A stretch of 64,000 nucleotides of DNA from an uncultured Ruminococcus sp. (GTDB taxonomy: Bacteria; Bacillota; Clostridia; Lachnospirales; Lachnospiraceae). Position 1 is the stretch's first letter; every line of letters starts with the position of its first letter. Shown in pieces: positions 6,869-47,649 of the stretch. The notes beneath the pieces were generated by a model. It saw only the letters and a program-made list of their open reading frames with translations, did not search any database and was not told the origin of the DNA. The stretch lies in contig CAZUNG010000003.1 of NCBI GenBank assembly GCA_964621905.1, forward strand, positions 216,366 through 280,365, in the 5' to 3' direction. Both the position numbers and the translations under genes were made by a program.

Positions 6869-6876
6869 TTATCTAA

Positions 6877-6948: not shown

Positions 6949-6951
6949 TTT

Positions 6952-6982: not shown

Positions 6983-7003
6983 GTTAGACAATTAAATGAT
7001 TGT

Positions 7004-12049: not shown

Positions 12050-12129
12050 GCGGGCATGGCGGAATTGGCAGACGCGCCAGATTTAGGTTCTGGTGGGAGA
12101 CCGTGCAGGTTCAAGTCCTGTTGCCCGCA
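12050..12129 (+). tRNA. tRNA-Leu(TAG)
   Basis: Anticodon arm CCAGA-TT TAG GT-TCTGG, variable arm, GTTCAAGTC T-loop. Confidence 0.95.
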
Positions 12130-29589: not shown

Positions 29590-29707
29590 TGTTACCAATG
29601 ATTTATGCTAGTATGACTGTGCCGTGTGCTACCAGAATTTCAAATCTCCATGCTATACTGTAATCATCAAAAATGATGATTTGGCAGTCAGAAATAGCAG
29701 GAGGTTG

Positions 29708-30931
29708 ATGATGATGACGAATAAAGAGCGCGAATTTCGTACATTGAGCTTTTCAAATGAGGGACTTGACAGAGGCGCAAAACAGGAAACATTTGAACCG
29801 TGGGATCTGACGGTTTCGGATTGGGAAAAAGAAGGGCTGACAACAGATTTTAACAAAAAACTGAAGGTGCCGATTGTCCCCACAGAGGTCGGCTATATCA
29901 AAAAAGATGAGCCCGTTGAATGGGTTGACCATTATTATATGACAATGCTTGCAGATCCGATTTTTGATCTGGAAAAAACGCTGGGGTATGACCCGGTACT
30001 TCGTATGGCTTTTCGAATTCCATTTCTCAGTTATGATGAGGAAATGATGGAGGATACGGATGAGTATACGGTAAAAAGAGATATTGACGGCTGGATCAGA
30101 AAATATTATAAAGGACGTGATCTTTTTACTGCCGTTCAGCCGGTGGTTTCTGATGAGGAATCCTGGGAACGCCACAAAGACCATACGTTAAAGGCTTATA
30201 AAAAATACTGTACAGATGAAGCGATGCATGCCGCATATGATAAGTATCATGCGATCAGCGAGAGCGGGGAATATCCGATTCGCTTTCGGCTGATGGGATT
30301 TTTCTGGAGTATCCGTGATCTGATGGACAACGAACCGATGCTGTATGCATGGTATGATTACCCGGAAATGATTGAGGACATTCATAGATTTCAGCTGAAT
30401 CTTTATAAAGAACAGATGGATAAGATATTAAAAATTGTGAAGCCTGAAGTACTGTTTTTTGAAGAAGATTTAAGTGGAAAGAATGGTCCGATGATCTCCC
30501 CGGATACCTTTGATGAGTTTTTAAGGCCGTGTTATGAAGAGATCATTCCATTTCTCAGAGAACGCGGAGTGCAGAATATATTCGTGGACACGGACGGCGA
30601 CTTTACAAAGCTGATTCCGAATTTTACATCATCGGGTGTCGATGGTTTTTTGCCGGTGGACGTGAATGCCGGTGTTGATATCGTGGATGTAAGAAGACGT
30701 TTTCCGGATGTTAAATTTATTGGAGGATTCAATAAACTGGAAATCCTGAAAGGTCCGGAGGCAATAGACCGCGAATTCAAGCGCCTGGAACCTGTGATCC
30801 GGCAGGGAGGCTATCTGTGCGGGATCGATCATCAGGCGGCTCCGGGCACTCCCTATGCATACTATCAGTATTATATAAAACGGCTGGGTGAAGTCATGGC
30901 GGCCTGCCGCGGAGAACACATCACGAAATAA
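29708..30931 (+). CDS. Uroporphyrinogen decarboxylase/MtaA-fold protein 1
   Basis: EDLSGKNGPMISP, VDTDGD, G.DGFLPVDVNAGVD, FIGGFNK, GGYLCGIDH; GGAGG RBS before ATG 29708. Confidence 0.8.
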   Translation: MMMTNKEREFRTLSFSNEGLDRGAKQETFEPWDLTVSDWEKEGLTTDFNKKLKVPIVPTEVGYIKKDEPVEWVDHYYMTMLADPIFDLEKTLGYDPVLRMAFRIPFLSYDEEMMEDTDEYTVKRDIDGWIRKYYKGRDLFTAVQPVVSDEESWERHKDHTLKAYKKYCTDEAMHAAYDKYHAISESGEYPIRFRLMGFFWSIRDLMDNEPMLYAWYDYPEMIEDIHRFQLNLYKEQMDKILKIVKPEVLFFEEDLSGKNGPMISPDTFDEFLRPCYEEIIPFLRERGVQNIFVDTDGDFTKLIPNFTSSGVDGFLPVDVNAGVDIVDVRRRFPDVKFIGGFNKLEILKGPEAIDREFKRLEPVIRQGGYLCGIDHQAAPGTPYAYYQYYIKRLGEVMAACRGEHITK

Positions 30932-30966: not shown

Positions 30967-31016
30967 AAAACACGGGGACTGTAAAATGAGAAATCATTTT
31001 GCGGTCCCTGTGTTTT
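30967..31016 (+). terminator. Long hairpin terminator with GAAA loop
   Basis: AAAACACGGGGACTGTAAAATGA-GAAA-TCATTTTGCGGTCCCTGTGTTTT. Confidence 0.8.
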
Positions 31017-31071
31017 CTTATGTTATAACTGGAATATGGGTAATGAAAAGCGAAAATCTCTTATGTACAAT
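31008..31071 (+). promoter_or_regulatory. 41-bp shared motif copy 1 with promoter (sulfatase 1)
   Basis: CTGTGTTTTCTTATGTTATAACTGGAATATGGGTAATGAAA-17-TACAAT. Confidence 0.75.
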
Positions 31072-31152
31072 CTAATTATAGAATGCAGTCCTAATGCATC
31101 AGGGGTCAAAAAGATCTTTTGACGCCAACATTATCACAATATGGAGGTACAT

Positions 31153-32487
31153 ATGGAAACAAAAAAAGCAAATATTCTGTTTTTCTTTACGGATCAGCAG
31201 CGCTGGGACACTTGTGGATGTATGAATCCAAACCTGGATCTGACACCGAATCTGGACCAACTGGCAAAAGACGGGGCGTGTTTTAGAAAAGCGTATACGT
31301 GTCAGCCCGTCTGCGGACCGGCGCGTGCCTGCCTTCAGTCTGGAATGTATGCCACGGAGACTGGAAATTTTCACAACCTGCGCAGACTGGAACCGAATTC
31401 CTGCACACCACTTGCTGAATATCTGAACAGAGCCGGATACAAAACGGGGTACGTCGGCAAACTTCATCTGGCACAAACGACAGACGGACCGGTGCCGCCC
31501 GAATTACACTATGGATATAAGGACTACTGGCGTGCGATGGATGTTGTAGAATGGGGTTCCCTGCCGTATGAGGGCGGGCTGTATGACGAAAACGGAACAT
31601 TAGTCCCTTATAAAAACCAGTATCGGGTAGATTTCACGACAGATTTGCTGCTGGAATTCCTGGAACAGCAAAAAGATTCTGATGATCCGTTTTTTACCAT
31701 GATGTCATTGATCGAACCGCATCACCAGAACTGCATGTACCGGTATGTGGCGCCGGACGGATATGCAGATAAGTATCGGGATGCATGGGTTCCCGGGGAT
31801 CTGGCCGTACGTCGGGGAGAGGGGGACTGGGAAAAGAATCTTCCGGACTATTATGGCATGATTCGCAGGATTGATGAAAATCTTGGGCGTGTGGTGGAGG
31901 CTCTGAAGAAAAATGGTCAGTATGAAAATACATATCTCATATTCAGCAGCGATCACGGCAGTCATTTCCGGACAAGAAACAGTGAATACAAGCGGGCGTG
32001 CCATGATGCGTGTACGCATATTCCTATGGTGATTCATGGACCAGGCGTAAAGCCCGGGTATCAGGAACATGAAAAACTTGCGAGTCTGATTGACATACCG
32101 GCTACGATTCTGGATATGGCGGGGGTGGAAAAACCCCGGCATTATCGTGGAAGATCGCTTCTTCCTCTGATGAAAGGGGAAGATGTTGAGTGGAGAGAGG
32201 AGGTATTTATCCAGATATCAGAATCACAGGTGGGGCGGGCAGTCTGCGACGGGAAATATAAATACTCTGTTTCTGCCCCCGGGCTTGACGGATTTGCAGT
32301 GTGTGCGGCAGATTTGTACCGGGAAGAGTTTTTGTATGATCTGGAAGCGGATCCGGATGAAAATGTGAATCTGGTAACGGATGCAGATTACGAAGAGGTG
32401 AGAAAGAAACTACGAAGAACCTTGCTTAAATATATAGAGGAAGTGGAACATTATACGCCGGATATTCTTCCGGCTGAACACAGGTAA
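31153..32487 (+). CDS. Cytoplasmic formylglycine-dependent (Cys-type) sulfatase 1
   Basis: FFTDQQR, CQPVCGPARACLQSG (CxPxR), YVGKLHL, FSSDHG; no signal peptide. Confidence 0.9.
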   Translation: METKKANILFFFTDQQRWDTCGCMNPNLDLTPNLDQLAKDGACFRKAYTCQPVCGPARACLQSGMYATETGNFHNLRRLEPNSCTPLAEYLNRAGYKTGYVGKLHLAQTTDGPVPPELHYGYKDYWRAMDVVEWGSLPYEGGLYDENGTLVPYKNQYRVDFTTDLLLEFLEQQKDSDDPFFTMMSLIEPHHQNCMYRYVAPDGYADKYRDAWVPGDLAVRRGEGDWEKNLPDYYGMIRRIDENLGRVVEALKKNGQYENTYLIFSSDHGSHFRTRNSEYKRACHDACTHIPMVIHGPGVKPGYQEHEKLASLIDIPATILDMAGVEKPRHYRGRSLLPLMKGEDVEWREEVFIQISESQVGRAVCDGKYKYSVSAPGLDGFAVCAADLYREEFLYDLEADPDENVNLVTDADYEEVRKKLRRTLLKYIEEVEHYTPDILPAEHR

Positions 32488-32649
32488 CGGCTGAAACAGT
32501 ACAGTGGAGGAGAAGTCTTTTGCTGTGCTGTTTTTATGACTTTCTTACAAAGAAATCCTGTAATAACAGATGAATCGTGCGTATTCTGACAGGGATCTGT
32601 GTGAAATAACGGTGACTATTGTGTGTTTTGCTGTAAAAAAGCAAACAAT

Positions 32650-32713
32650 CTGTATTTTCTTATGTTATATCTGGATTCTGAATAGTGAAAACCAAAGAAT
32701 ATTCACGTAATAT
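32650..32713 (+). promoter_or_regulatory. 41-bp shared motif copy 2 with promoter (sulfatase 2)
   Basis: CTGTATTTTCTTATGTTATATCTGGATTCTGAATAGTGAAA-17-TAATAT. Confidence 0.8.
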
Positions 32714-32767
32714 ATAACTATGTTGTAAAACAGAACGGCAAGAAGAGGGAGGTGTAAGAAAGGCCGG

Positions 32768-34291
32768 ATGAAGACAGTATTTATTTTATGTGATACCGTA
32801 AACCGCCGGATGCTGGATCTCTATAACAGCAGCCGGGAAGAGACGGCACTGATGCCGAATCTAAACCGCCTGGCAAAAAGAGGGATGGTTTTTGACAATC
32901 ACTGGTGCGGCAGTGCGCCCTGCATGCCTGCACGCAAGGACATCATGACGGGGCGTCTGAATTTTCTGGAAAAGCCGTGGGGGGCGATTGAACCTTATGA
33001 ACAGACATTACAGACGGTATTGGCTGAGAAAAATGTGCATACAATGATGTTCAGTGACCATTCTCACTATGTGATTCCGGGAGGTGAGAATTATACAAAG
33101 GGTTTTACCGCATGGGAAGTGTTCAGAGGTCAGGAAGGAGATCCCTGGTGTGTGACTCCCGACAAGGGGGGGATAAAAAAGGATGTCAGGCCAAGTGACT
33201 TCAAGGGTGAGTATTCGGTGTCAGAAGAAGCAAATCGCCGAAGATTAAAAACGGAGGACGATTACCCGAGTGTAAAAACATTGAGCAGTGCTGCGAGATG
33301 GCTGGAAGAAAATCATAACGCAGACAACTTTATGCTGTGGGCGGAGGCGTTCGATCCGCATGAGCCATATGATGTTCCGGAAAAATATCTGGATCTCTAT
33401 GAAAAAGATTATACCGGTTTTGACGCAAAACACCCGGATTATCAGCCAAATATTTTCACGGAGGAGGAGACTAAGCATCTAAAGAACCGCTGCAGGGCAT
33501 TGATGACCATGACGGATACCCATATTGGTGAGATTCTGGACGTACTGGATGCGCACGATATGTGGAAGGATACGATGGTGATATTTACGACGGACCATGG
33601 TTTCCATCTGGGAGAACACGGATATATGGCGAAGAACTATATGGCGCCGTACAATGAAGTGTTCCATATTCCGCTTATTGTCTGTGCACCTGGATGTAAG
33701 GCGGGGCGCAGTCAGGCGCTGACACAGAACATCGATGTGATGCCGACGGTGCTGGAATACTTTGGCGCGGATCGTAAACTGCATTATCCGCTGCACGGGA
33801 AAAGCCTGATGCCAATTCTTTCGGGGAAAGTAACGCAGATGAGAAGTGATACGATCTTTGGATATTTCGGAAAACAGGTTGGCTATACTGACGGGACTTA
33901 TGTGTATATCAAAGCCGCCAGAGATGACAGCAATCGGCCGCTGAATGTTTATACGGCTGTGCCCAGTATCCTGAGGCAGTATTTTGGAGCGGATGATGCA
34001 GTAAATGCAGAGGATTATGACAAAATTGAAATGGGAAGATTCTTATCCTGGACGAATTATCCGGTATATAAAATACCCGCGGATATTATTAACTTCAGAA
34101 ATCCATCGCAGGAATTCTCTTGCCGGTCCAGGTACAATCAGGAAAATCTTCTGTTTGATCTGACAGAGGATTACCATCAGGAACATCCTATTACGGATGA
34201 AAAACTGGAACGCAAATATCAGGAACAGTTGAAACGATGTATGCAGGAATATGATGCACCGGCAGAACAGTATGAACGTCTGGGTATTTAA
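32768..34291 (+). CDS. Cytoplasmic formylglycine-dependent (Cys-type) sulfatase 2
   Basis: ILCDT, PCMPARKDIMTG (CxPxR), FDPHEP, FTTDHGFHLGEHG, FHIPLIV; no signal peptide. Confidence 0.9.
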   Translation: MKTVFILCDTVNRRMLDLYNSSREETALMPNLNRLAKRGMVFDNHWCGSAPCMPARKDIMTGRLNFLEKPWGAIEPYEQTLQTVLAEKNVHTMMFSDHSHYVIPGGENYTKGFTAWEVFRGQEGDPWCVTPDKGGIKKDVRPSDFKGEYSVSEEANRRRLKTEDDYPSVKTLSSAARWLEENHNADNFMLWAEAFDPHEPYDVPEKYLDLYEKDYTGFDAKHPDYQPNIFTEEETKHLKNRCRALMTMTDTHIGEILDVLDAHDMWKDTMVIFTTDHGFHLGEHGYMAKNYMAPYNEVFHIPLIVCAPGCKAGRSQALTQNIDVMPTVLEYFGADRKLHYPLHGKSLMPILSGKVTQMRSDTIFGYFGKQVGYTDGTYVYIKAARDDSNRPLNVYTAVPSILRQYFGADDAVNAEDYDKIEMGRFLSWTNYPVYKIPADIINFRNPSQEFSCRSRYNQENLLFDLTEDYHQEHPITDEKLERKYQEQLKRCMQEYDAPAEQYERLGI

Positions 34292-34300
34292 TACCGCATC

Positions 34301-34314
34301 TGAATACGTATTCG
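34301..34314. promoter_or_regulatory. Candidate LacI-type operator
   Basis: Palindrome (T)GAATACGTATTC with central CG, 43 bp upstream of the LacI gene. Confidence 0.55.
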
Positions 34315-34356
34315 GTTATTACATCTGATCAAAATTTTAGGAAAGCGGGATATAAC

Positions 34357-35370
34357 ATGACATCCAGAGAGCTTGCGGTGTTGGCAGGAGTGTCGCAGTC
34401 TACAGTTTCCAGAGTGTTAAATAATTGCGAAAACGTTTCTGACAGAAAACGGCAGAAAGTGCTGGAGCTTGCCCGTATTTATAATTTTGAACTGGACGGC
34501 AATGCCAGAAGTCTGAAAACACAAAAATTGAACAGAGTTGGTGTTTTCTTATCCGATTATTTTGTCGGCTTTGACCAGAACCTGTTCTGGTCAAATATCT
34601 ACTCAAGGCTGCACACAGAACTGCAGAGCAGAGGGCTTACCGCACTTCCGGTATATGCATATAACAGTTCAACGAAGATAATGTTAAACCGTCTGATCGG
34701 ACAGAGGCAGATGGACAGAATTATTATGGTTGCCACGGACAAGTTTTATGACGAAGACAGCCTGCAGATCCTGTTTGAAAAGGAAATTCCTTTTGTCTGT
34801 ATCTATGACAGAGCGGATGATGATCATTACTATGAGAAAGAAGAGGTCAATATCATAGCGCTTGATTTTAAAGGTGCGGGACGGATTGCAGCTGAATTTC
34901 TGTATCAGCAGGGACATCGCCGGATCGCGCTGCAGGTCAATCCGAGGGACCGTTCCAACAACAGCAGATGCAGAGGGTTTCGCAGGGCACTGCCCCGGGA
35001 CTGTACGGTTCAGGAAGTCAGTACGGGTAAAGGGATCAGTTCCATTACCTTTGAGGGGGGATATGCGGCGGCAAAAGCCCATATCGACACCTTTCATGAA
35101 TGTACAGCTGTTCTTGCGGCGAATGACGCCGCGGCCATCGGGATGATTGCTGCTCTGCAGGAACATGGATTTGATGTGCCCGGTGATATCAGCGTCATCG
35201 GAATCAATGATATTCCGATGTGTAAATGGTGGCGGCCTCATCTGACAACCGTTGCATTTGATGTCCAGGAGATTATCGACCACACGATCGACTTGCTGAT
35301 CGAAAGACGGGAAGAGACAAGACAGATTATCATAACACCCAAACTGGTAGTCAGAGAGTCTGTAAAATGA
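34357..35370 (+). CDS. LacI-family transcriptional regulator
   Basis: LAGVSQSTVSRVLN HTH; NDAAAIG, VPGDISVIG, P.LTTV. Confidence 0.93.
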   Translation: MTSRELAVLAGVSQSTVSRVLNNCENVSDRKRQKVLELARIYNFELDGNARSLKTQKLNRVGVFLSDYFVGFDQNLFWSNIYSRLHTELQSRGLTALPVYAYNSSTKIMLNRLIGQRQMDRIIMVATDKFYDEDSLQILFEKEIPFVCIYDRADDDHYYEKEEVNIIALDFKGAGRIAAEFLYQQGHRRIALQVNPRDRSNNSRCRGFRRALPRDCTVQEVSTGKGISSITFEGGYAAAKAHIDTFHECTAVLAANDAAAIGMIAALQEHGFDVPGDISVIGINDIPMCKWWRPHLTTVAFDVQEIIDHTIDLLIERREETRQIIITPKLVVRESVK

Positions 35371-35446
35371 GCACGGGATGGCAGCAGATTTATAAAGCGA
35401 AGGCAGCTTTGTAAATAAAACGATATCATGCATAGGAGGATGACAA

Positions 35447-36592
35447 ATGAAAAGTATGAAAAAAGTAATCAGTTTATTGTTGGTTTTGACAATGGCAGCA
35501 GCATTGTGTGCATGCGGAGGGAAAAAGGAAGAGGCCAAAGAGGAAAGTAAGGATACCCAAGAGACAGAAGCGGCAGATACTTCTTCGGAAGACAAAAAAG
35601 ACGGGGAACTGGCGCCCAGTGGGGATACCGTCAACATTGCCGCGTTGATCAACACAGATGGGCTTGCTGTGTGGTATGCAGATAAAATGGGGTATTTTGA
35701 AGAACTGGGTTTAAAAACAAATATCACCTATTTTGTCAATGGAACACTGGAAAATGAAGCGTTGTCCGCAGGAGAAGCAGAGATCGGCTTTAACGGATTT
35801 GCGGGGGTGTATGCGCTGGCTACCGGAGATTATACAATGGTTGCAGACTGCGATGACGGAAAAGGGCTTGCTGTTTATGTAAATCCGGACTGTCCGGTGG
35901 TTGATGTACAGGGAGAGTACAGCAAAGAAAACCCGGATGTGTACGGTAATGCCGAGACGGCAGCGGGACTGAGCTTCGGTGTGACACTGGGAACCGTACA
36001 GCAGATCATGGTGGACTCTTATTATGCAAACCTTGGACAGAAAGATTACAATCTTGTGAGCATGGATGCAGCTTCCTGCTATAATGCACTGATCAGCGGA
36101 GAGGTTGACGGAGCGGCACTGACGATGAATTACTGTGCGGCAGCGGAAGCGGCAGGCATGGTATGTCTGGGTACCTACGAGGGAATCACCGGTGTCGGAA
36201 CCGGGTCAACGGTCATTGTTCCGAACGATTATATGGAGAGCAACCGCGATGATATTGTGCTGTCCTTGAAAGCAGTCTTTAAGGCGCTGGATGAAATTCA
36301 GAATGATGAACAGCTGGAATTTGATCAGGGCATGGAGTTCTTCAAAGAGATGGGAACGGAATACACAGAAGACGAAATGTGGACAGAAATCAATGTTCGT
36401 GATCTTTACTCCTATGAGAAGCTGAAAGATCTCAAATATGGAAATCATGTGGTATTCTCGGCGATTGAGCTGACCAAACTGGGGCTGCTGGACGAAGGCA
36501 GTGCAGAAACAGTAGCAAAGAGTATCAATAAAGACCTCATGGAAGAGGCTACGGGTGTTTCGATTACGGTTGAAATGCCGGAGGGATACTAA
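35447..36592 (+). CDS. ABC substrate-binding lipoprotein, TauA/SsuA/NMT1-like
   Basis: Lipobox LCACG; ADKMGYFEELGL, F.NG..ENEAL.AG; precedes Tau-type permeases and ATPases. Confidence 0.75.
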   Translation: MKSMKKVISLLLVLTMAAALCACGGKKEEAKEESKDTQETEAADTSSEDKKDGELAPSGDTVNIAALINTDGLAVWYADKMGYFEELGLKTNITYFVNGTLENEALSAGEAEIGFNGFAGVYALATGDYTMVADCDDGKGLAVYVNPDCPVVDVQGEYSKENPDVYGNAETAAGLSFGVTLGTVQQIMVDSYYANLGQKDYNLVSMDAASCYNALISGEVDGAALTMNYCAAAEAAGMVCLGTYEGITGVGTGSTVIVPNDYMESNRDDIVLSLKAVFKALDEIQNDEQLEFDQGMEFFKEMGTEYTEDEMWTEINVRDLYSYEKLKDLKYGNHVVFSAIELTKLGLLDEGSAETVAKSINKDLMEEATGVSITVEMPEGY

Positions 36593-36622
36593 ATACAAAA
36601 GCCGTACCGATAGGTAAGCATA

Positions 36623-36679
36623 AGCTGCCCCCTGTGCCAAAAGCAGGTATTTTGAAGCATTCAGGCACAGGGGGCAGCT
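36623..36679 (+). other. 16-bp perfect intra-operon stem-loop
   Basis: AGCTGCCCCCTGTGCC / GGCACAGGGGGCAGCT, no U-tract. Confidence 0.75.
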
Positions 36680-36717
36680 GTTGAAACAACGAACAGGTTA
36701 AGACGGGAGGGTTTAAT

Positions 36718-37521
36718 ATGCCTGCTGAAAAGGTTAAAAAGAAAAAAAAGAAACGGTCGTATCTCTGGCTGTCGGTCTTGTCGATGGTGCTGTTTTTCTT
36801 TATCTGGTGGCTGTTTACAGAGGGAAGTCTCGGCACGATTAAAGAAAATGTACTGCCCGGACCAATAAAAGTGCTGCGCACACTGATTGATAAATTTTCC
36901 AACAGGAATCCCGACGGCGCTACCATGCAGATGCATCTGTGGGCAAGTCTGAAGATTACGTTGATCGGATATCTTATAGGATGCCTGGTAGGGATACCGC
37001 TGGGGATATTTATGGGCTGGTATGAAAAAGCGGATATCTTTATTAATCCAATTTTTGATTTCATCCGGCCAATTCCGGGGATCGCATGGACACCGTTGTT
37101 CATTTTGCTGTTTGGTATCGGTATGCTTCCGAAAGTGATCGTTATCGCACTGGCAACTTTCGGCCCGGCACTGGTGAACACCTATACGGGAATTAAACAG
37201 ACGAAAGAAGTTCACATCTGGGTAGGACAGACGTTTGGGGCATCAAAATTCGAGATTCTGCGTAAAATTGCGATTCCATCATCGATTCCTTTTGTTTTGA
37301 CGGGAATGCGTGTCGGTCTCGGTGTTGCGTGGTCGACGATTATCGGAGCAGAGATGCTTGCGGCTACTGCAGGTCTTGGCTACCTGATTAATCTGTGCCG
37401 CGGAATTTATCGTCCGGATATTATTATTGCGGCGATGATCTGTGTTGGTCTGATCGGAGCGGCGCTTGGCTATCTGCTGACACTCCTGGAGCGTCATCTG
37501 ATGAAAGGGGGAAGATGGTAA
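36718..37521 (+). CDS. ABC permease, TauC/SsuC type
   Basis: IRPIPGIAWTPL, EAA-loop region, GMRVGLGVAWS.IIGAEML. Confidence 0.9.
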   Translation: MPAEKVKKKKKKRSYLWLSVLSMVLFFFIWWLFTEGSLGTIKENVLPGPIKVLRTLIDKFSNRNPDGATMQMHLWASLKITLIGYLIGCLVGIPLGIFMGWYEKADIFINPIFDFIRPIPGIAWTPLFILLFGIGMLPKVIVIALATFGPALVNTYTGIKQTKEVHIWVGQTFGASKFEILRKIAIPSSIPFVLTGMRVGLGVAWSTIIGAEMLAATAGLGYLINLCRGIYRPDIIIAAMICVGLIGAALGYLLTLLERHLMKGGRW

Positions 37522-38306
37522 TGACTTTGAGAAAAGCAAAATTTTGGCAGAAGCTGGGTGCCGGTGTGATATCATTTGCAGTTTTCATATTAATATGGCA
37601 GCTTGCAGCGATGAATCCCACTTTCAGCCAGGTAATGCCGGGCCCGTTTGATGTTCTGAAAAAGTTTTTTGAATCATTCGTAGAGCCAATCGGAAAAAAT
37701 GTCATGGTTTACCATGTTTTTATTACCTTGTCCAGGTGGGCGGTGGGATTTATTGCGGCGACGGTACTCGGCATTGCACTGGGGCTTGCGATGGGCTGGT
37801 ATCCGAAATTTGAGTCTTTTATGCGGCCCCTTTTTGAACTGGTTCGTCCGATCCCAACGCTTGCATGGATTCCGCTTGTGATTCTGTGGTGCGGTATCGG
37901 TGAGTTTGCAAAATATACACTGGTATTCATCGGTGCTTTTATGAGCATTGTCCAGAATGCTTATCACGGAGCAAAATCTGTCGACCGTTCGATTGTGGAT
38001 GCGGCACAGATGCTTGGATGTAATGACCGCCAGCTGTTTTTTACGATTGTAATCCCGGCCTCTGTACCGGCAATCTCGGCGGGCCTTCAGATTGGCGTCG
38101 CCTCGGCATGGTCGTCTGTTGTAGCGGCAGAACTGGTACGTTCGTCGAGCGGTATCGGATGGATTGTAGTGACGGGACAGCAGAATAATAACATGACGCA
38201 GATTCTGGTGGGAATCCTGGTTATTGCGGTGATCGGGCTGATATTGGCACTTTTGATAAGGAAAGTTGAGGATGTATTATGCAGATGGAACAAACGCGGA
38301 AGATAG
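37521..38306 (+). CDS. Second ABC permease, TauC/SsuC type
   Basis: VRPIPTLAWIPL, DAAQMLG, GLQIGVASAWSSVVAAEL; TAATG coupling with the previous gene (alternative start 37515). Confidence 0.9.
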   Translation: MTLRKAKFWQKLGAGVISFAVFILIWQLAAMNPTFSQVMPGPFDVLKKFFESFVEPIGKNVMVYHVFITLSRWAVGFIAATVLGIALGLAMGWYPKFESFMRPLFELVRPIPTLAWIPLVILWCGIGEFAKYTLVFIGAFMSIVQNAYHGAKSVDRSIVDAAQMLGCNDRQLFFTIVIPASVPAISAGLQIGVASAWSSVVAAELVRSSSGIGWIVVTGQQNNNMTQILVGILVIAVIGLILALLIRKVEDVLCRWNKRGR

Positions 38307-39064
38307 ATGAAAACTTTATCGAACTGAAACATGTAGAGAAAGAATTTGAGAAGGTCAAAGAAGGCGGCGTGTTTCAAGTTGTCGGTGATCTGAATATCAA
38401 TGTCAGGGAAAATGAGTTTCTGGTGCTGTTTGGTCCGGGCCAATGTGGAAAAACAACAATCCTGAATATGATCGCAGGGTTTCAGGAACCGACCGCAGGC
38501 ACACTTAAGATGAAAGGGAAAGAGATCCACGGACCGGACCCCTCCAGAGGGATGGTGTTTCAGAATCTTGCAATCTTTCCATGGCTGACTGTCATGGGAA
38601 ATGTGGAGTACGGTCTGCGGATGAAAGGCATTGATAAAAAGACACGTCGTGAGAGAGCACAGTATTACATAGACCTGGTAGGATTAAAGGGGTTTGAAAA
38701 CCATTATCCGGTCCAGATATCCGGAGGAATGAAACAACGTGTTGGGATTGCGAGGGCATACTGCAATGAACCCGATGTGATCTTAATGGATGAACCATTT
38801 GGCGCTCTTGATGCACAGACACGTTATCTGATGCAGGATGAGATCATCAGGATCTGGGAAGCGGAAAAGCGGACCGTCATCTTTGTCACCAACAATATTG
38901 AAGAAGCGGTCTACGTGGCAGACAGAATTATCGTGATCCGCAACTGTCCGACCAGTGTGAAGGCGGAGTATGAAATCAATCTGCCGAGACCGAGAAGTTA
39001 TATTGATCCTGAATTTTTGAAACTGCGCCGTGAGATTAACAGCGTTGTGGATCATACGCTTTAA
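38279..39064 (+). CDS. ABC ATPase 1 (TauB/SsuB type), degenerate Walker A and H-loop
   Basis: GPGQCGKT, ISGGM signature, LMDEPF, VTNN in place of VTH. Confidence 0.9.
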   Translation: MQMEQTRKIDENFIELKHVEKEFEKVKEGGVFQVVGDLNINVRENEFLVLFGPGQCGKTTILNMIAGFQEPTAGTLKMKGKEIHGPDPSRGMVFQNLAIFPWLTVMGNVEYGLRMKGIDKKTRRERAQYYIDLVGLKGFENHYPVQISGGMKQRVGIARAYCNEPDVILMDEPFGALDAQTRYLMQDEIIRIWEAEKRTVIFVTNNIEEAVYVADRIIVIRNCPTSVKAEYEINLPRPRSYIDPEFLKLRREINSVVDHTL

Positions 39065-39079
39065 AAACGGGAGGGAAAT

Positions 39080-39826
39080 ATGGCTGATAAAAAAATTAAA
39101 ATTCAGGTAGATCATCTGACGAAAAAATTTGGAGATCTTACGGTTTTGGATGACATTTCATTCAATGTAGAAGAAGGAGAATTCCTTTGTATCGTTGGGC
39201 CTACCGGGTGTGGAAAAACAACATTCCTCAACAGTGTGACCAAGTTGTATGATATCACGGCAGGACAGATCCTTGTGAACGGCGAGGAGGTCGATCTGAA
39301 AAAACATAATATTTCCTATATTTTTCAGGAATTCTCAGCAATGCCATGGCTTACAATCGAACAGAATGTAGGGTTCGGACTGGATATCAAGAAAGTTCCA
39401 AAGGCGGAAAAAAAGGAACTGGTGGAAGAAATGCTGGAAATTGTAGGTCTGTCCGATTTCAGAAATTTCTATCCGCAGCAGGTATCCACGAGTATGAATC
39501 AGAGGATTGGGATTGCCCGTGCGTTTGCTACAAAGCCGGAGATCCTGCTGATGGATGAACCGTACGGACAGCTGGATATTGACCTGCGTTTTAAGCTGGA
39601 AGACGAACTGGTAAAGCTGTGGAAGAAAACCGGGACAACGGTATTATTTATCACACATAACGTGGAAGAGGCAGTTTACCTGAGTGAACATATCATGGTT
39701 CTGACAAATAAACCGTGTCATGTGAAAACTGTAATAGAAAATACACTGCCGCGTCCGCGGGATGTCATGTCCCTGGAATTTGTCAAACTGAGAGATCACG
39801 TGACAGAAATGATTAAATGGTGGTGA
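39080..39826 (+). CDS. ABC ATPase 2 (TauB/SsuB type), degenerate signature
   Basis: GPTGCGKT, VSTSM in place of LSGGM, LMDEPY, ITHN. Confidence 0.9.
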   Translation: MADKKIKIQVDHLTKKFGDLTVLDDISFNVEEGEFLCIVGPTGCGKTTFLNSVTKLYDITAGQILVNGEEVDLKKHNISYIFQEFSAMPWLTIEQNVGFGLDIKKVPKAEKKELVEEMLEIVGLSDFRNFYPQQVSTSMNQRIGIARAFATKPEILLMDEPYGQLDIDLRFKLEDELVKLWKKTGTTVLFITHNVEEAVYLSEHIMVLTNKPCHVKTVIENTLPRPRDVMSLEFVKLRDHVTEMIKWW

Positions 39827-39833
39827 GCGTGCA

Positions 39834-40628
39834 ATGGCGTTAGTTTTGTTTGCCGTATGTCTGTTTGCATCGACAGCCGGTGCAGTGGCCGGATTTGGCG
39901 GAGGAGTCATCATTAAACCGGTACTGGATGCATTTGGGATTCTGCCGGTGAGCACTGTCAGCTTTCTGTCGGGCTGTACGGTGCTCGGCATGTCAGCTGC
40001 CTCTCTGATCCGGGGCAGAAATGACGGTGTGAAACTCATGGTGAAGACCAGCACACCGCTTGCGGTTGGGGCAGCGGCAGGGGGGCTGTTGGGAAAAACA
40101 TTGTTTGACCTGGTGCGGGCACGTTTTGCTGATGAAAATATGCTGGGATTGATCCAGACGGCGCTGCTGCTGCTCACGACGGTCGTGGTACTGATCTATG
40201 TCATCAAAAAGGACCGGATGAGCGCCATGCAGGTGGAACATATGGCGGTCTGTCTGCTGATCGGTGTCTTTCTGGGAGGAATCTCATCTTTTCTGGGAAT
40301 TGGCGGAGGACCGATTAACGTTGCCGTGCTGTTTTTTTTCTTTTCTATGGACGCGAAGACAGCCGCCAAAAACTCTATTTATATCATTCTGTTCTCGCAG
40401 GTCTTTAACCTGGCAGCGGCACTGGTAAAAGGCAATGTTCCTGCATTTTCTGTCAGCAGTCTGGTACTGATGACGGCAGGCGGAATTGCCGGTGCCATTC
40501 TGGGTGCCGGGATATCCGGGCGGCTGGATTCGAAAAAAGTGGAAAAACTTTTGTATGCATTGATGATATTGATTATCGGGATCAATTGTTATAATCTGGT
40601 ATCCTTTGCCCTGGTGCTGCGTTTCTGA
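39834..40628 (+). CDS. TauE/SafE-family (sulfite exporter-like) membrane protein
   Basis: Duplicated GFGGGVIIKP / GIGGGPINVA motifs, multiple TM helices. Confidence 0.88.
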   Translation: MALVLFAVCLFASTAGAVAGFGGGVIIKPVLDAFGILPVSTVSFLSGCTVLGMSAASLIRGRNDGVKLMVKTSTPLAVGAAAGGLLGKTLFDLVRARFADENMLGLIQTALLLLTTVVVLIYVIKKDRMSAMQVEHMAVCLLIGVFLGGISSFLGIGGGPINVAVLFFFFSMDAKTAAKNSIYIILFSQVFNLAAALVKGNVPAFSVSSLVLMTAGGIAGAILGAGISGRLDSKKVEKLLYALMILIIGINCYNLVSFALVLRF

Positions 40629-40629
40629 A

Positions 40630-40898
40630 ATATTAAAAAATATGATAGAAGATATGGAGGGGCCAGGCTTACGGACAGTCTTTGACATACCTTTATCGTA
40701 CCGATGGTCCCTCACCACAGAACCGCTATTGAAATGTCCCATAATATTCTGCAGTATACAACCTGTATTCCCTTACAGGATATTGCCTCTGGCATTATTG
40801 AAGAACAGACCAGAGGCATACAGAACATGCAGTGTATACTGGACCGATACCGTCAGCTGAGAAATTCACAGCAGGTTAGAGAAGCGCAGATCCGATGA
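40630..40898 (+). pseudogene. DUF305 (ferritin-like) pseudogene remnant
   Basis: ARLTDSL*HTFIVPMVPHHRTAIEMSHNILQYT...IIEEQ...M: in-frame TGA, upstream frameshift, no start or RBS. Confidence 0.65.
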
Positions 40899-40924
40899 AA
40901 GTTGGATCTGCGTTTTGTTTATCT

Positions 40925-41782
40925 TTAAATGCCGTGGATCTTCAGATTTCGGTATTCGGTAGGCGTTTTGTGAAACTGGGTGTGAAAATAGTTGGTAAAA
41001 TAAGAATCGCTTTGAAAACCTGTTTTGTCAGCAATTTCCCGTATGCTCCAGTCAGTATCGCGAAGCAGTATCTTGGCGGCATTAAGACGGGTCTGGATCA
41101 GGTATTGTTTCGGCGTGACACCGGTCCTGCTTTTGAATTTTTCGGAAAAGTAACTGGCATTCAGGCAGGCCATACCGGCAAGCTCCTGTACGGTCACAGG
41201 CAGATAATAATTTGCCTCGATATAGTGGATAGACTGATCAATCACAGATTCCCTTCCTGCTTCTGATCCGTGCTGCAGGGTGAGAAGGTCGCTCAGGATA
41301 GTATGGATATGACTGGAGATGACTTCTTCGTAGAGCGGTGTCTGCTGAATGAATCCCTCAGCAATCTCCATCAGAGCACGGTGCGTGCGGTTAATGTTGG
41401 GCGGGGTATACGCATGCCGGTATTCATGGATGCGGGAGACAAGCTCTGGTGCGTGGTTGCCCCGGAAACGTACAAATAACAGCTCTGTGTCCTTGCAGGC
41501 TGCATACAGGTGCGCTTTGGAGGTGTCGATGACTCCGATCTCGTTGTCGTGCAGCAGGTATTCTTTTCCGTCGATGATGATCAGCATCTCGCCGCGTACA
41601 ACATACTGGAAGGAAAAGTACCGAAAGTTTGAGAGCGGACGTGATGTAACGTAATGTCTGTTCAGATGATAATGACCGCCCTGTTCCGTGTAAAAGAGAT
41701 TTTTCTTGGCAAATTCAGAGGGAAAATTAATATAGTATTCAGAATCTTTCAGCATGATTCCGGCTTCTCCAAAAGGTTTCAT
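40925..41782 (-). CDS. AraC-family regulator divergent from UroD-like gene 2
   Basis: AAGGAG RBS before ATG 41782; LNASYFSEKFK.RTG.TP, GFQSDSYFTNYF...TPTEYR. Confidence 0.92.
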   Translation of the reverse strand: MKPFGEAGIMLKDSEYYINFPSEFAKKNLFYTEQGGHYHLNRHYVTSRPLSNFRYFSFQYVVRGEMLIIIDGKEYLLHDNEIGVIDTSKAHLYAACKDTELLFVRFRGNHAPELVSRIHEYRHAYTPPNINRTHRALMEIAEGFIQQTPLYEEVISSHIHTILSDLLTLQHGSEAGRESVIDQSIHYIEANYYLPVTVQELAGMACLNASYFSEKFKSRTGVTPKQYLIQTRLNAAKILLRDTDWSIREIADKTGFQSDSYFTNYFHTQFHKTPTEYRNLKIHGI

Positions 41783-41798
41783 AACAGTACTCCTTAAT

Positions 41799-41862
41799 CT
41801 GTATTTTCTTATGTTATATCTGGAATCTGAATAATGAAATAAAGAAAAATATCGCGTAATAT
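41799..41862 (+). promoter_or_regulatory. 41-bp shared motif copy 3 with promoter (UroD-like 2)
   Basis: CTGTATTTTCTTATGTTATATCTGGAATCTGAATAATGAAA-17-TAATAT. Confidence 0.8.
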
Positions 41863-41936
41863 ATAGATATATTATAACATATGAGTTATATGAAGAGTAG
41901 AAAAAATATGAAAAAAATGAAGTTTGGAGGAAGGAA

Positions 41937-43082
41937 ATGTTATCGAGAAAAAATTTCATTGCAGCGATGCGGGGAGAAAAAACAGACAAGATTCCGCTTT
42001 TGATGCGGGAAGGATTTGAGTACTGGTGGGAGCCTAAAGGAAAAGACAGATTTAAGGCGGGATGGATGAACGATCCGGAATACCGAAGGCTGATCCGGGC
42101 TGTCAAAGAGAGCGATGCCTATATTTTGTGTCAGGATCAGTCCTCTTTGTTTAATCGATTCATGATGTCGAGCACAGACAGGATAAAGACGGTGACGAAA
42201 GATGTGGATGAAAATACGAAGGACGTTTTTGGTGAATTACATACGGGCAAGGGAGTTTTGAAATTTCGTGATTCGATCTTTCGGAATCAGTGTACACAGT
42301 GGATTATGGAGGTGCCGGTAACTGAGGTAGAGCAGATGGAGGAACTTTTAGATACTCCGTTTGAAATTAATGATGAAACTGTTGATAAAGCGGTGCAGGA
42401 GGTACAGGATACGGTTGACCGCCTGGATGAGCGTGTGATCTATCAGTTCTTCGTCCCCTCACCGATTGTGACAATCTCGCGCTGTATGACGTTTGAGATG
42501 TTTTTGGAACTGTCACTGACGGAGCGGGAACTGATGCTGGATGCGCTGGAAGAAATTACGGCAAGACAGATACGGATGGTGGATGCCGTCGCTCCAAGGC
42601 TTCCTGACCAGGTTGTGTTCTGGATGGGAGGATCTGAACAGTGTACGCCGCCGATGATGAATCCGGAAGCTTTTGACTTGTTTGTAGAACCGTACGATTC
42701 CAGAGTCGTGAAAAAAATGAAAGAGTACGGCTATGCAGTAGGCTGCCACTGTCATGGAAAAGTTCGCCACGCTGTCGATGTCATGCGGCGGATCGGGTAC
42801 GATGCGACAGAGCCTGTAGAGCCGGCGCCTCAGGGAAACGTGTCGATGAAAGAAGCATTTGAGATTACAGAAGGCCAGCTGACACTGATTGGAAACCTGG
42901 AGTGGGCAGATCTGGAACTGGCATCGGAAGAAGAAATTCGCCATAAGGTCAGAGCCTTGGAAGAAGTGAAAGGGGAACGGCTGATCGTTGCGTCTTCTGC
43001 AGGTCCGATCACTACAGTAACCGGTAAACTGGTCGATAATCATCTGGTGTGGCTGGATGAGTATCAGAAAGTATTTGGATAA
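41937..43082 (+). CDS. Uroporphyrinogen decarboxylase/MtaA-fold protein 2
   Basis: MLSRKNFIAAMRGEKTDKIP start, GGSEQCTPPMMNP, CHCHGKV, EPVEPAPQGN, LIGNLE. Confidence 0.8.
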   Translation: MLSRKNFIAAMRGEKTDKIPLLMREGFEYWWEPKGKDRFKAGWMNDPEYRRLIRAVKESDAYILCQDQSSLFNRFMMSSTDRIKTVTKDVDENTKDVFGELHTGKGVLKFRDSIFRNQCTQWIMEVPVTEVEQMEELLDTPFEINDETVDKAVQEVQDTVDRLDERVIYQFFVPSPIVTISRCMTFEMFLELSLTERELMLDALEEITARQIRMVDAVAPRLPDQVVFWMGGSEQCTPPMMNPEAFDLFVEPYDSRVVKKMKEYGYAVGCHCHGKVRHAVDVMRRIGYDATEPVEPAPQGNVSMKEAFEITEGQLTLIGNLEWADLELASEEEIRHKVRALEEVKGERLIVASSAGPITTVTGKLVDNHLVWLDEYQKVFG

Positions 43083-43103
43083 TCTAATATGGTAAAGAAA
43101 TAT

Positions 43104-43142
43104 GACCTCCGTATGGCGTGTATGAGACAGCCGGTACGGAGG
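43104..43142 (+). terminator. Hairpin separating UroD-like 2 from the NRPS
   Basis: ACCTCCGTA...TACGGAGGT followed by TGTTCTTTT. Confidence 0.5.
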
Positions 43143-43218
43143 TTGTTCTTTTAGGGCTTTCAAAATCCGCATTTTTTAGTATAATAGAAGGTATGTATGG
43201 AGATATGGAGCATGAGAG

Positions 43219-46452: not shown

Positions 46453-46453
46453 T

Positions 46454-47362: not shown

Positions 47363-47387
47363 CAAAATGAATCTGCTACTGTATAAT
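47359..47387 (+). promoter_or_regulatory. sigmaA promoter of amt-glnK
   Basis: TTGACA-17-TATAAT. Confidence 0.9.
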
Positions 47388-47427
47388 ACGCCTGAAGACA
47401 AACATAGTACCCCGGAAAGGGGATTAG

Positions 47428-47464
47428 AGGCAATGGTGCCGTAAATGACACCATTGCCTTTTTT
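47428..47464 (+). terminator. Leader terminator (attenuator) upstream of amt with an ANTAR-like sub-hairpin
   Basis: AGGCAATGGTG-CCGTAAATGA-CACCATTGCCT-TTTTT about 35 nt after the promoter; alternative GGC-AATGGT-GCC hairpin. Confidence 0.75.
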
Positions 47465-47649
47465 GTGTAGAAGAGGAGGTAAGATAGGAAAATGAATGAT
47501 ATGATGGCGGCTGCCTATATCAGCTTTGGGCTGCCGGGATGTCAGGGAGTGCGAAGCAGTCCTTCTTGCAAACTCCCGTAAAATGAAGATTTCAATAATA
47601 AACAATGGCGGTGTAACTGACGCTGCCTGGATGAAAAGGAGGTTTTTTT

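What the first reader, a model, noticed from the sequence alone, without database searches (positions are those of the whole stretch)
31008..41862. A 41-bp motif repeated at three promoters defines a sulfatase/UroD-like regulon
Seen: copies at 31008-31048, 32650-32690 and 41799-41839. Copies 2 and 3 match at 39/41 and copies 1 and 3 at 36/41. Each ends in a weak -35 (RTGAAA) exactly 17 nt before a -10 (TACAAT, TAATAT, TAATAT), and CTG recurs at a 21-bp period. Copy 3 starts 17 nt upstream of the divergent AraC start codon. Known: AraC activators bind tandem half-sites about 21 bp apart overlapping the -35. Inference: AraC 40925-41782 activates both sulfatases and UroD-like 2 and autoregulates. 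This is direct sequence evidence that these genes share one pathway.
Basis: partly seen in the sequence, partly recalled or inferred. Interest (0 to 1): 0.7.

Follow-up and report, generated by a model that had tools for sequence, protein, structure and literature searches.

The report
Shared AraC operator at three promoters
A conserved 41-bp DNA element sits at the same place in three promoters (two sulfatase genes and a UroD-fold enzyme gene) and is most likely the binding site of the neighbouring AraC-type regulator, tying these genes into one small organosulfate-utilisation regulon in an uncultured gut/bioreactor Firmicute.

Summary
The three copies, their identities (39/41 and 36/41), the RTGAAA-17 nt-TAnnAT geometry and the CTG 21 bp apart are all as described.

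The element is a conserved footprint, not a chance or junk repeat. In relatives whose AraC2 orthologue is 63-79% identical, it lies at the same promoters, always ending in RTGARA 17-18 nt before a -10. The spacers and flanks have diverged (identity 0.72-0.77 against 0.35-0.49).

It occurs nowhere else in about 0.35 Mb of related loci, in a JGI metagenome scan, or in all contigs of four metagenome runs that hold this organism (exactly three places in each run).

AraC2 (40925-41782, minus strand) is the only regulator that always accompanies it. The local LacI has its own conserved palindromic operator (34301-34314). Paralogous sulfatase/UroD operons under a two-component AraC-type regulator lack the motif.

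In one relative, the sulfatase 2 and UroD-like 2 orthologues sit in a single operon behind one motif.

A conserved extended -10 (TGnTAnAAT) on the opposite strand makes autoregulation of araC2 plausible.

Binding, activation and transcription starts remain untested. The tandem half-site structure is only weakly supported.

Verdict: first reading supported; an ordinary but well-supported new member of a known kind.

The parts
31008..31048 (+). Motif copy m1, the operator in the sulfatase 1 promoter. Its 5' end (CTGTGTTTT) doubles as the 3' arm and T-tract of the uroD-like 1 terminator (30969-31014).
   Evidence: The orthologous copy in L031 scores 48.9 bits. A 15-nt deletion relative to L031 fuses the terminator to the motif.
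31066..31071 (+). Predicted -10 (TACAAT) of the sulfatase 1 promoter, 17 nt after ATGAAA (31043-31048).
   Evidence: promoter scan with spacer 17.
31153..32487 (+). Sulfatase 1. Cytoplasmic S1 sulfatase of the Cys type (CGPAR). The ORF opens at 31141, but the likely start is 31153.
   Evidence: Pfam Sulfatase 1.6e-54; motif and N-terminus.
32650..32690 (+). Motif copy m2, the operator in the sulfatase 2 promoter.
   Evidence: Orthologous copies in L031, L006, L009 and L012.
32708..32713 (+). Predicted -10 (TAATAT) of the sulfatase 2 promoter, 17 nt after GTGAAA.
   Evidence: Sequence; the column is conserved in alignment A4.
32768..34291 (+). Sulfatase 2 (Cys type, CMPAR, no signal peptide), first gene of the long operon.
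   Evidence: Pfam 7.8e-36; 79% identical to the sulfatase of the L012 operon.
34301..34314 (.). Palindromic LacI-type operator TGAATACGTATTCG between sulfatase 2 and lacI. This is a second, separate control element.
   Evidence: It is conserved at the same place in L009 (TGAATACGTATTCA) and L006 (doubled). It is the only good match in the window.
34357..35370 (+). LacI/RbsR-family regulator inside the operon.
   Evidence: Pfam LacI and Peripla_BP_3; NCBIfam RbsR-like.
35447..40628 (+). SsuA/NMT1-like lipoprotein binding protein, two permeases, two ATPases and a TauE-family exporter. Probably co-transcribed from the m2 promoter.
   Evidence: Pfam; lipoprotein signal; same gene order in relatives; terminator-like hairpin at 40881-40916.
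40925..41782 (-). araC2, AraC/XylS-family regulator of 285 aa, the proposed binder of the motif.
   Evidence: Pfam HTH_18 9e-22. Fold matches to CsvR, Rns and ToxT, and to the MarA, AdpA and AraC DNA-binding domains. Orthologues always lie divergent from a motif-bearing promoter.
41799..41839 (+). Motif copy m3, the operator in the uroD-like 2 promoter. It lies within the predicted 5' UTR of araC2.
41857..41862 (+). Predicted -10 (TAATAT) of the uroD-like 2 promoter.
   Evidence: Sequence; conserved TAnnAT column in alignment A1.
41871..41879 (-). Predicted extended -10 (TGTTATAAT) of the araC2 promoter on the minus strand, 8 bp from the uroD-like 2 -10, so the two promoters overlap.
   Evidence: TGnTAnAAT is conserved in all 7 aligned intergenic regions (columns 86-97; identity 0.79).
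41937..43082 (+). UroD-like 2, a UroD/MtaA-fold enzyme of unknown reaction. Probably monocistronic.
   Evidence: Pfam URO-D 2.9e-18; 83% identical to the UroD gene inside the L012 sulfatase operon.
43102..43146 (+). Terminator-like hairpin after uroD-like 2, separating it from the NRPS-EamA genes.
   Evidence: -26.2 kcal/mol, z = -4.15, followed by a U-rich tail.

Best explanation
The 41-bp element is the operator of the adjacent AraC/XylS-family regulator AraC2 (40925-41782, minus strand).

Proposed mechanism:
- AraC2 probably binds as a dimer. It occupies about four helical turns immediately upstream of, and overlapping, a weak -35 (RTGAAA), in a class II arrangement.
- When it has bound its still unknown small-molecule signal, it recruits RNA polymerase to three promoters.

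The three promoters and what they drive:
- Psulf1 drives sulfatase 1.
- Psulf2 drives sulfatase 2, lacI, an SsuA-like ABC importer and tauE.
- PuroD2 drives UroD-like 2.

Together these genes import an organosulfate, desulfate it in the cytoplasm, export the sulfur anion and process the carbon skeleton with a UroD-fold enzyme.

Autoregulation: at m3 the araC2 promoter (a conserved extended -10 on the opposite strand) overlaps PuroD2, and its transcript must cross the operator. Occupancy at m3 therefore probably lowers araC2 expression.

Second layer: a LacI-family repressor acts at its own palindromic operator downstream of sulfatase 2 and gates the transporter part of the operon.

Shown here: the sequence anatomy, the conservation, the restriction to these promoters and the co-occurrence with AraC2. 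Inferred: binding, activation rather than repression, dimer stoichiometry, autoregulation, operon extents and substrate.
For: 1. The repeat is real and far beyond chance.

2. Phylogenetic footprint. The element is present at the orthologous promoters in these loci (AraC2 orthologue identity in brackets where applicable):
- L006 (79%)
- L009 and L019 (72%)
- L018 (64%)
- L022 (63%)
- L012 (63%)
- L029
- L031, the syntenic relative with an 89% sulfatase 1

The RTGARA, 17-18 nt, TAnnAT geometry is fixed throughout. Seventeen positions are invariant in 13 non-redundant sites. Mean pairwise identity is 0.72-0.77 in the motif, 0.40 in the spacer and 0.35-0.49 in the flanks.

3. Specificity.
- A PWM scan of about 0.35 Mb of window plus loci gave hits above 12 bits only at these promoters. 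Shuffled windows scored at most 4.1 bits.
- A degenerate 35-mer scan of JGI metagenomes gave 6 hits, all upstream of sulfatase 2 or UroD orthologues.
- Laying the motif at 80% likeness or more on every contig of four metagenome runs that hold the organism gave exactly m1, m2 and m3 in each run.

4. Regulator link.
- AraC2 orthologues are always divergent from a motif-bearing promoter, with the motif 14-16 nt from their start codon.
- Paralogous sulfatase/UroD/TauE/anSME operons with a histidine kinase and a response-regulator-AraC protein instead (L033, and the second operon of L012) have no motif.

5. AraC2 has a confident AraC-type two-HTH domain and an N-terminal beta-rich domain like those of Rns, ToxT and CsvR.

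6. The size (41 bp) and the position abutting the -35 match published dimeric AraC/XylS operators. XylS, MekR and AraC have a 21-bp period. The MtlR site covers at least 37 bp upstream of the -35 and has a weaker proximal half-site (PMC4514859).

7. Pathway link. In L012 and L013 the orthologues (sulfatase 79%, UroD 83% identical) lie in one operon behind a single motif, divergent from the AraC.
Against: - There is no binding, expression or transcription-start data. Public RNA runs gave only one 196-nt contig, inside uroD-like 2.
- The internal direct-repeat structure is weak. Only CTG (positions 1-3 and 22-24) clearly repeats. The offset-21 score is beaten by 78 of 5000 column permutations, and by 967 of 5000 when any offset from 15 to 26 is allowed.
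Copies below about 80% identity elsewhere in the genome cannot be excluded.
- The DNA-binding helices of the AraC2 orthologues are too conserved to show protein-DNA covariation.
- m2 and m3 also share spacer sequence. Part of their similarity is therefore recent common descent or gene conversion, not selection.
Confidence: 0.72

Rival explanations
1. The motif is a real operator but is bound by another regulator: one of the paralogous AraC proteins (AraC1 28648-29589, AraC3 49442-50461) or an unlinked factor. AraC2 would be only a neighbour.
For: AraC1 lies directly upstream of uroD-like 1 and m1, in L031 as well. An AraC3 homologue is near the locus in L006. No binding data exist.
Against: The motif-bearing loci L009, L019, L012, L018 and L029 show no AraC1- or AraC3-type gene within the flanks fetched, while an AraC2 orthologue is always adjacent. 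The motif keeps a fixed distance of 14-16 nt from the AraC2 start codon in every species.
Confidence: 0.1
2. AraC2 binds the motif but acts as a repressor that occludes the -35, with induction by release.
For: The site overlaps the -35, which is also a classic repressor position. The -10 boxes are fairly good (TAATAT, TACAAT).
Against: The -35 is weak in every copy (RTGAAA, 4 of 6 matches to TTGACA) and is part of the invariant block. This is typical of activator-dependent class II promoters. Most AraC/XylS catabolic regulators with this geometry are activators (established knowledge; PMC4514859).
Confidence: 0.1
3. The LacI-family regulator encoded in the operon (34357-35370) binds the 41-bp motif.
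For: It is encoded inside the m2-driven operon and is conserved in L006, L009 and L031. The motif contains CTGAATA, which equals one half of the LacI palindrome.
Against: A canonical 14-bp palindrome, TGAATACGTATTCG, is conserved just upstream of lacI in the window, L009 and L006, and does not occur at m1, m2 or m3. The motif is not palindromic. The CTGAATA positions are variable between species. L012 and L013 keep the motif without any lacI in the operon.
Confidence: 0.03
4. There is no dedicated factor. The three copies are simply a promoter cassette copied by duplication or gene conversion, an UP-element-like AT-rich upstream region kept by descent.
For: m2 and m3 also share spacer and post -10 sequence (82% over 82 nt). 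This indicates recent common ancestry of the whole promoter.
Against: Across species the spacer and flanks have diverged to 0.35-0.49 identity, while the block from about -75 to -31 stays at 0.72-0.77, with 17 invariant positions including G and C bases. After a 15-nt deletion in the window lineage the CTG...TTT start of m1 was still preserved. Paralogous operons lack the motif.
Confidence: 0.05

Closest known systems
AraC at araBAD I1-I2, XylS at Pm and MekR at PmekA (dimeric AraC/XylS activators at class II promoters)
   Same: - A roughly 40-bp site immediately upstream of, and overlapping, a weak -35.
- A 21-bp recurrence of a short box (here CTG at positions 1 and 22).
- A regulator with an N-terminal sensor domain and a C-terminal double HTH.
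- A regulator gene that is divergent and probably autoregulated.
(Site formats as summarised in PMC4514859.)
   Different: - The two half-sites are not clearly alike beyond CTG.
- The host is an uncultured Firmicute.
- The regulated genes are sulfatases, an SsuA-like importer, TauE and a UroD-fold enzyme.
- No binding has been shown.
- No sign of a distal looping site was looked for or seen.
MtlR at PmtlE of Pseudomonas fluorescens (PMC4514859)
   Same: The operator covers at least 37 bp upstream of the -35. It consists of two similar but non-identical blocks, with a weaker promoter-proximal half-site that is needed for inducibility.
   Different: The sequence is different (AGTGC-N5-AGTAT-N7-AGTGC-N5-AGGAT, period 22). 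mtlR is unlinked to its operon. MtlR binding is verified experimentally; this case is not.
Rns, CsvR and ToxT (structurally closest full-length AraC-family proteins)
   Same: Two-domain architecture: an N-terminal cupin-like domain plus a C-terminal AraC DNA-binding domain. Foldseek E-values 1e-8 to 1e-10.
   Different: Sequence identity is only 12-18% and overall TM-scores are about 0.33, from a medium-confidence model (pLDDT 66). Those proteins are virulence regulators that sense fatty acids. Nothing suggests a shared ligand or targets.
LacI/RbsR-type repressors with 14-bp palindromic operators
   Same: The local LacI homologue has the HTH plus Peripla_BP architecture. A conserved TGAATACGTATTCR palindrome lies just upstream of its own gene.
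   Different: The operator lies inside an operon, between sulfatase 2 and lacI, rather than at the main promoter. The effector is unknown.

Membership tests
AraC/XylS family transcription factor (AraC2, 40925-41782 minus strand) | C-terminal domain of about 100 aa with two helix-turn-helix motifs | tested here: met
   Pfam HTH_18 9e-22 (residues 201-279) and HTH_AraC 8e-19. The model has pLDDT 84-91 over residues 180-280. The DNA-binding domain superposes on AdpA-DNA, YesN-CTD, MarA-DNA, SoxS and the AraC DBD with target TM-scores 0.76-0.91.
AraC/XylS family transcription factor (AraC2) | N-terminal ligand-binding and dimerisation domain (cupin-like), as in the catabolic, dimeric members | tested here: inconclusive
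   Only sub-threshold Pfam hits (AraC_binding_2 4e-4, Cupin_2 6e-4). The model shows a beta-rich domain (residues 55-107) followed by long helices, but at pLDDT 40-67. Full-length Foldseek hits to CsvR, Rns and ToxT at 1e-8 to 1e-10, and to the BgaR sensor domain at about 1e-3.
AraC/XylS family transcription factor (AraC2) | Sequence-specific binding to the proposed operator | not testable with these tools
   Needs EMSA, footprinting or DAP-seq. Only co-occurrence was shown.
Dimeric AraC-type class II operator | A site of about 35-42 bp that ends at or overlaps the -35 of the regulated promoter | tested here: met
   The 41-bp conserved block ends in RTGARA, 17 nt (18 in one case) before TAnnAT, in all 13 sites. 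The -35 and -10 are predicted, not mapped.
Dimeric AraC-type class II operator | Two similar half-sites in direct repeat with a period of about 21 bp | tested here: inconclusive
   C1 and C22-T23 are invariant, and CTG repeats at offset 21. The offset-21 profile similarity is the best among offsets 15-26. It is matched by 78 of 5000 column permutations at that offset, and by 967 of 5000 at any offset.
Dimeric AraC-type class II operator | Transcription start about 7 nt after the -10, and activator dependence | not testable with these tools
   No usable RNA data.
LacI family repressor and operator (34357-35370; 34301-34314) | N-terminal LacI HTH plus a periplasmic-binding-protein-like core, with a palindromic operator of 14-20 bp near the gene | tested here: met
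   Pfam LacI 2.8e-11 and Peripla_BP_3 6.5e-29. The palindrome TGAATACGTATTCG is conserved in L009 and L006 at the same position. Binding was not tested.
S1 formylglycine-dependent sulfatases (31153-32487; 32768-34291) | Sulfatase fold with a C/S-x-P-x-R maturation motif, and a maturase available | tested here: met
   Pfam Sulfatase 1.6e-54 and 7.8e-36. The motifs are CGPAR and CMPAR. An anSME-type radical SAM/SPASM gene lies in the orthologous operons of L009, L012 and L029 but not in this window. Whether the genome has one elsewhere could not be checked.

The most novel reading that the evidence does not exclude
The motif and AraC2 mark a conserved, uncharacterised organosulfate-utilisation module of anaerobic gut and bioreactor Clostridia. 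In it, a cytoplasmic Cys-type sulfatase is obligatorily coupled to a UroD/MtaA-fold enzyme that has no corrinoid partner and no HxC zinc motif. That enzyme would catalyse a new reaction on the desulfated product. Expression would need two signals: AraC2 at the promoter and LacI at an intra-operon operator.
Probability: 0.3. Interest if true: 0.6.

Novelty: new member of a known kind. Interest (0 to 1): 0.38.

Why it matters
The element gives a concrete, testable cis-regulatory code for an uncharacterised AraC-family regulator in uncultured gut and bioreactor Firmicutes: a 41-bp operator with 17 invariant positions.

It also links two sulfatases, an SsuA-like importer, TauE and a UroD-fold enzyme of unknown reaction by regulatory evidence, on top of the synteny evidence. 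That link narrows the search for the substrate and for the chemistry of the UroD-like protein. It also supplies promoters and a regulator that could be used as a biosensor to screen organosulfates.

As regulation, it is a textbook arrangement and is not surprising in itself.

Tried and rejected
I substituted a genome-contig scan, a metagenome-contig scan and laying the motif on all contigs of four runs that hold the organism. The genome-contig scan of the 20-mer core found only one chance hit, in an archaeal MAG, so the source genome is not in that collection.\n- RNA evidence for transcription starts. Only metatranscriptome contigs were available, and they gave one 196-nt piece inside uroD-like 2. 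This was uninformative.\n- Known RNA element. Rfam has no match at any copy, and the motif lies upstream of the -10. Rejected.\n- LacI as the binder. Rejected after finding its own conserved palindrome.\n- CodY-like or other global boxes. By eye, the best CodY-box alignment has about 7 of 15 mismatches and falls on variable positions. Not pursued.\n- Protein-DNA covariation between AraC2 recognition helices and motif variants. The helices are nearly invariant, so this was uninformative.\n- More distant AraC2 homologues (49-53% identity; L014, L016, L023). They remain divergent from a UroD-like gene or an ABC operon, but the motif is not recognisable there beyond TAATGAAA-17-TATGAT (best 9.7 bits). 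The operator has diverged.\n- Literature. No paper links sulfatase, UroD-like, TauE and AraC genes in such a cluster.

Full report
**Observation**

The three copies are in the sequence exactly as described:
- m1, 31008-31048
- m2, 32650-32690
- m3, 41799-41839

All three are on the plus strand. m2 and m3 match at 39/41, and m1 and m3 at 36/41.

- The invariant core TTTTCTTATGTTATAWCTGGA occurs three times without mismatch in 64 kb, against 0.01 expected.
- The full 41-mer has an expectation of 0.00.
- The repeat finder extends the similarity to about 82 nt, through the -10 (family D2).
- Each copy ends in ATGAAA or GTGAAA, followed by exactly 17 nt and then TACAAT, TAATAT or TAATAT. The m1 promoter is also listed by the promoter scan.

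**Gene map**

| Coordinates | Strand | Feature |
|---|---|---|
| 26183-28546 | + | NrdD |
| 28648-29589 | + | AraC1 |
| 29624-30931 | + | UroD-like 1 |
| 31008-31048 | + | motif m1 |
| 31153-32487 | + | sulfatase 1 (likely start; the ORF opens at 31141) |
| 32650-32690 | + | motif m2 |
| 32768-34291 | + | sulfatase 2 |
| 34357-35370 | + | LacI-family regulator |
| 35447-36592 | + | SsuA/NMT1-like lipoprotein binding protein |
| 36718-39826 | + | two permeases and two ATPases |
| 39834-40628 | + | TauE |
| 40881-40916 | + | terminator-like hairpin |
| 40925-41782 | - | araC2 |
| 41799-41839 | + | motif m3 |
| 41937-43082 | + | UroD-like 2 |
| about 43102-43146 | + | strong hairpin |
| from 43219 | + | NRPS-EamA pair |

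Both sulfatases are Cys-type (CGPAR and CMPAR) and lack signal peptides, so they are cytoplasmic.

**Is the element conserved, or just a local repeat?**

AraC2 has few relatives: 15 proteins at E no greater than 1e-20. I fetched their contigs.

In every relative down to 63% AraC identity, the same element lies in the AraC-UroD or AraC-sulfatase intergenic region. It starts 14-16 nt from the AraC start codon. A second copy lies upstream of the sulfatase 2 orthologue wherever that promoter is separate (L006, L009, and partially in L018).

A syntenic relative found through sulfatase 1 (L031, 89% identical) carries the element upstream of both sulfatase 1 and sulfatase 2.

Thirteen non-redundant sites share 17 invariant positions: 1, 7-9, 11-15, 19, 22-23, 35, 37-39 and 41. 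All end in RTGARA, 17 nt (once 18) before TAnnAT.

In multiple alignments of the orthologous intergenic regions, mean pairwise identity by segment is:

| Segment | Mean pairwise identity |
|---|---|
| Motif | 0.72-0.77 |
| -10 | about 0.8 |
| -35/-10 spacer | 0.40 |
| Flanks | 0.35-0.49 |

This is a classic phylogenetic footprint.

In the window lineage, a 15-nt deletion relative to L031 has fused the uroD-like 1 terminator to m1. The CTG...TTT start of the element was still preserved.

**Is it restricted to these promoters?**

- A position weight matrix built from the sites gave hits above 12 bits only at these promoters, in about 0.35 Mb of (partly redundant) window plus loci. Shuffled windows never exceeded 4.1 bits.
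- A degenerate 35-mer scan of the JGI metagenome collection returned six loci. All were upstream of sulfatase 2 or UroD orthologues. One (L029) is an internal promoter in front of UroD-TauE-anSME.
I therefore laid 41790-41865, at 80% likeness or more, on every contig of four metagenome runs that hold this organism. Each run gave exactly three places, which are m3, m2 and m1.
- A scan of 185,579 species genomes for the 20-mer core found only one chance hit, in an archaeon.

**Which regulator binds it?**

AraC2 is the only regulator always present next to the element. AraC1- and AraC3-type genes are absent from the flanks of L009, L019, L012, L018 and L029.

Paralogous operons (binding protein, permeases, ATPases, sulfatases, UroD, TauE, anSME) that are governed by a histidine kinase plus a response-regulator-AraC protein carry no motif. 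These are L033/L034 and the second operon of L012.

The LacI-family protein has its own operator. A 14-bp palindrome, TGAATACGTATTCG, lies at 34301-34314 between sulfatase 2 and lacI. It is conserved at the same place in L009 (perfect) and L006 (doubled), and is absent from m1, m2 and m3. L012 keeps the motif without any lacI.

AraC2 has a confident AraC-type double-HTH domain: Pfam 9e-22, model pLDDT 84-91, and target TM-scores of 0.76-0.91 to the AdpA, MarA and AraC DNA-binding domains. Its N-terminal beta-rich domain resembles Rns, ToxT and CsvR, although that part of the model is of low confidence.

**Architecture and mechanism**

A 41-bp site that ends in the -35 is what dimeric AraC/XylS activators use. 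Published formats are:
- XylS: TGCA-N6-GGNTA, twice
- MekR: CACC-N5-CTTCAA, twice

All three have a 21-bp period. MtlR occupies at least 37 bp upstream of the -35, with a weaker proximal half-site (PMC4514859).

Here CTG recurs at positions 1-3 and 22-24, and C1, C22 and T23 are invariant. The remainder of the two halves is not obviously alike. The offset-21 profile similarity is the best among offsets 15-26, but 78 of 5000 column permutations reach it at that offset, and 967 of 5000 reach it at some offset. I therefore regard the two-half-site model as plausible, not demonstrated.

The -35 is weak in every copy (4 of 6 matches) and is part of the invariant block, which favours activation over repression.

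New here: the intergenic alignment shows a third conserved island, ATATTATARCA. On the minus strand this reads TGnTAnAAT, an extended -10 (window 41879-41871, TGTTATAAT). It is the likely araC2 promoter and lies only 8 bp from the -10 of PuroD2. The two promoters must therefore compete for RNA polymerase, and the araC2 leader runs across the operator.

**Pathway link**

In L012/L013 the orthologues of sulfatase 2 (79% identical) and UroD-like 2 (83% identical) lie in one operon behind a single motif, divergent from the AraC gene. The gene order is sulfatase, binding protein, permeases, ATPases, UroD, TauE, anSME.

In the window lineage this unit is split, and both parts keep the element. This independently supports the claim that the sulfatases and the UroD-like enzyme work together.

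- The regulon probably includes the ABC importer and TauE, through the m2 promoter.
- The NRPS-EamA genes are separated from UroD-like 2 by a hairpin. In relatives that position is occupied by urease or surface-protein genes, so they are not part of the unit.
- The substrate is unknown. The sulfatases are closest to choline-sulfatase and arylsulfatase models, well below their cut-offs.
- UroD-like 2 has only weak MtaA-type similarity, no solved relative by sequence and no HxC motif.
- No anSME gene lies in the window.

**Limits**

- No binding, expression or transcription-start data exist. The public RNA runs were uninformative.
- Part of the m2-m3 similarity, in the spacer, reflects recent common descent.
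- Weak or diverged sites elsewhere in the genome cannot be excluded.

**Verdict**

This is a well-supported but conventional AraC-type operator and regulon, a new member of a known kind. Its main value is as a handle on an uncharacterised sulfatase-UroD-fold pathway.

Noticed in passing
window 34301-34314: Conserved LacI-type palindrome TGAATACGTATTCG between sulfatase 2 and lacI. It is also in L009 (11962-11975) and doubled in L006. This implies a second, intra-operon control point for the transporter genes.
   Followed up: partly
window 30969-31014 and 31008-31016; L031 7880-7936: In the window, the 3' arm and T-tract of the uroD-like 1 terminator are fused to the 5' end of m1 by a 15-nt deletion relative to L031, where terminator and motif are separate.
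   Followed up: partly
window 31102-31126: A 25-nt near-perfect palindrome, GGGGTCAAAAAGATCTTTTGACGCC, lies in the predicted sulfatase 1 leader. The segment is absent from the orthologous leader in L031. Its function is unknown.
   Followed up: no
window, whole; L009 4549-5733, L012 500-1522, L029 1158-2285: Relatives carry an anSME-type radical SAM/SPASM maturase inside the sulfatase/UroD operon. tblastn finds none in this 64-kb window, so the two Cys-type sulfatases must rely on a maturase encoded elsewhere.
   Followed up: partly
L033 1-16144; L012 10857-20846: Paralogous operons (binding protein, permeases, ATPases, up to four sulfatases, a different UroD-like subfamily, TauE, anSME) sit under a histidine kinase plus a response-regulator-AraC hybrid and lack the motif. 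The sulfatase plus UroD-fold pairing therefore recurs in at least two independently regulated versions.
   Followed up: partly
L006 2954-8706, compared with window 43219-48891: Downstream of UroD-like 2 the window has NRPS, EamA and Amt genes. The 79% relative has a complete urease cluster (ureABC, ureI-like, ureEFGD) at that position. This is a variable insertion point next to a conserved promoter.
   Followed up: no
window 31141-31153: The sulfatase 1 ORF opens at ATG 31141, but GGAGG (31143-31147) precedes ATG 31153. The shorter start is the more likely one.
   Followed up: no
L031 9576-9734: The gene call for the sulfatase 2 orthologue in L031 (455 aa) starts too late. The alignment shows the MKTIFILCDT start about 160 nt upstream, as in the 507-aa orthologues.
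   Followed up: no
window 42795-42990: A 196-nt contig from a wastewater metatranscriptome matches uroD-like 2 with one difference, so the gene, or a near-identical one, is transcribed in situ.
   Followed up: no
window 11692-11939 (minus strand) and 6528-7076, 12050-12129: A T-box leader and a cluster of seven tRNA genes (Rfam). This is consistent with a Firmicute host.
   Followed up: no
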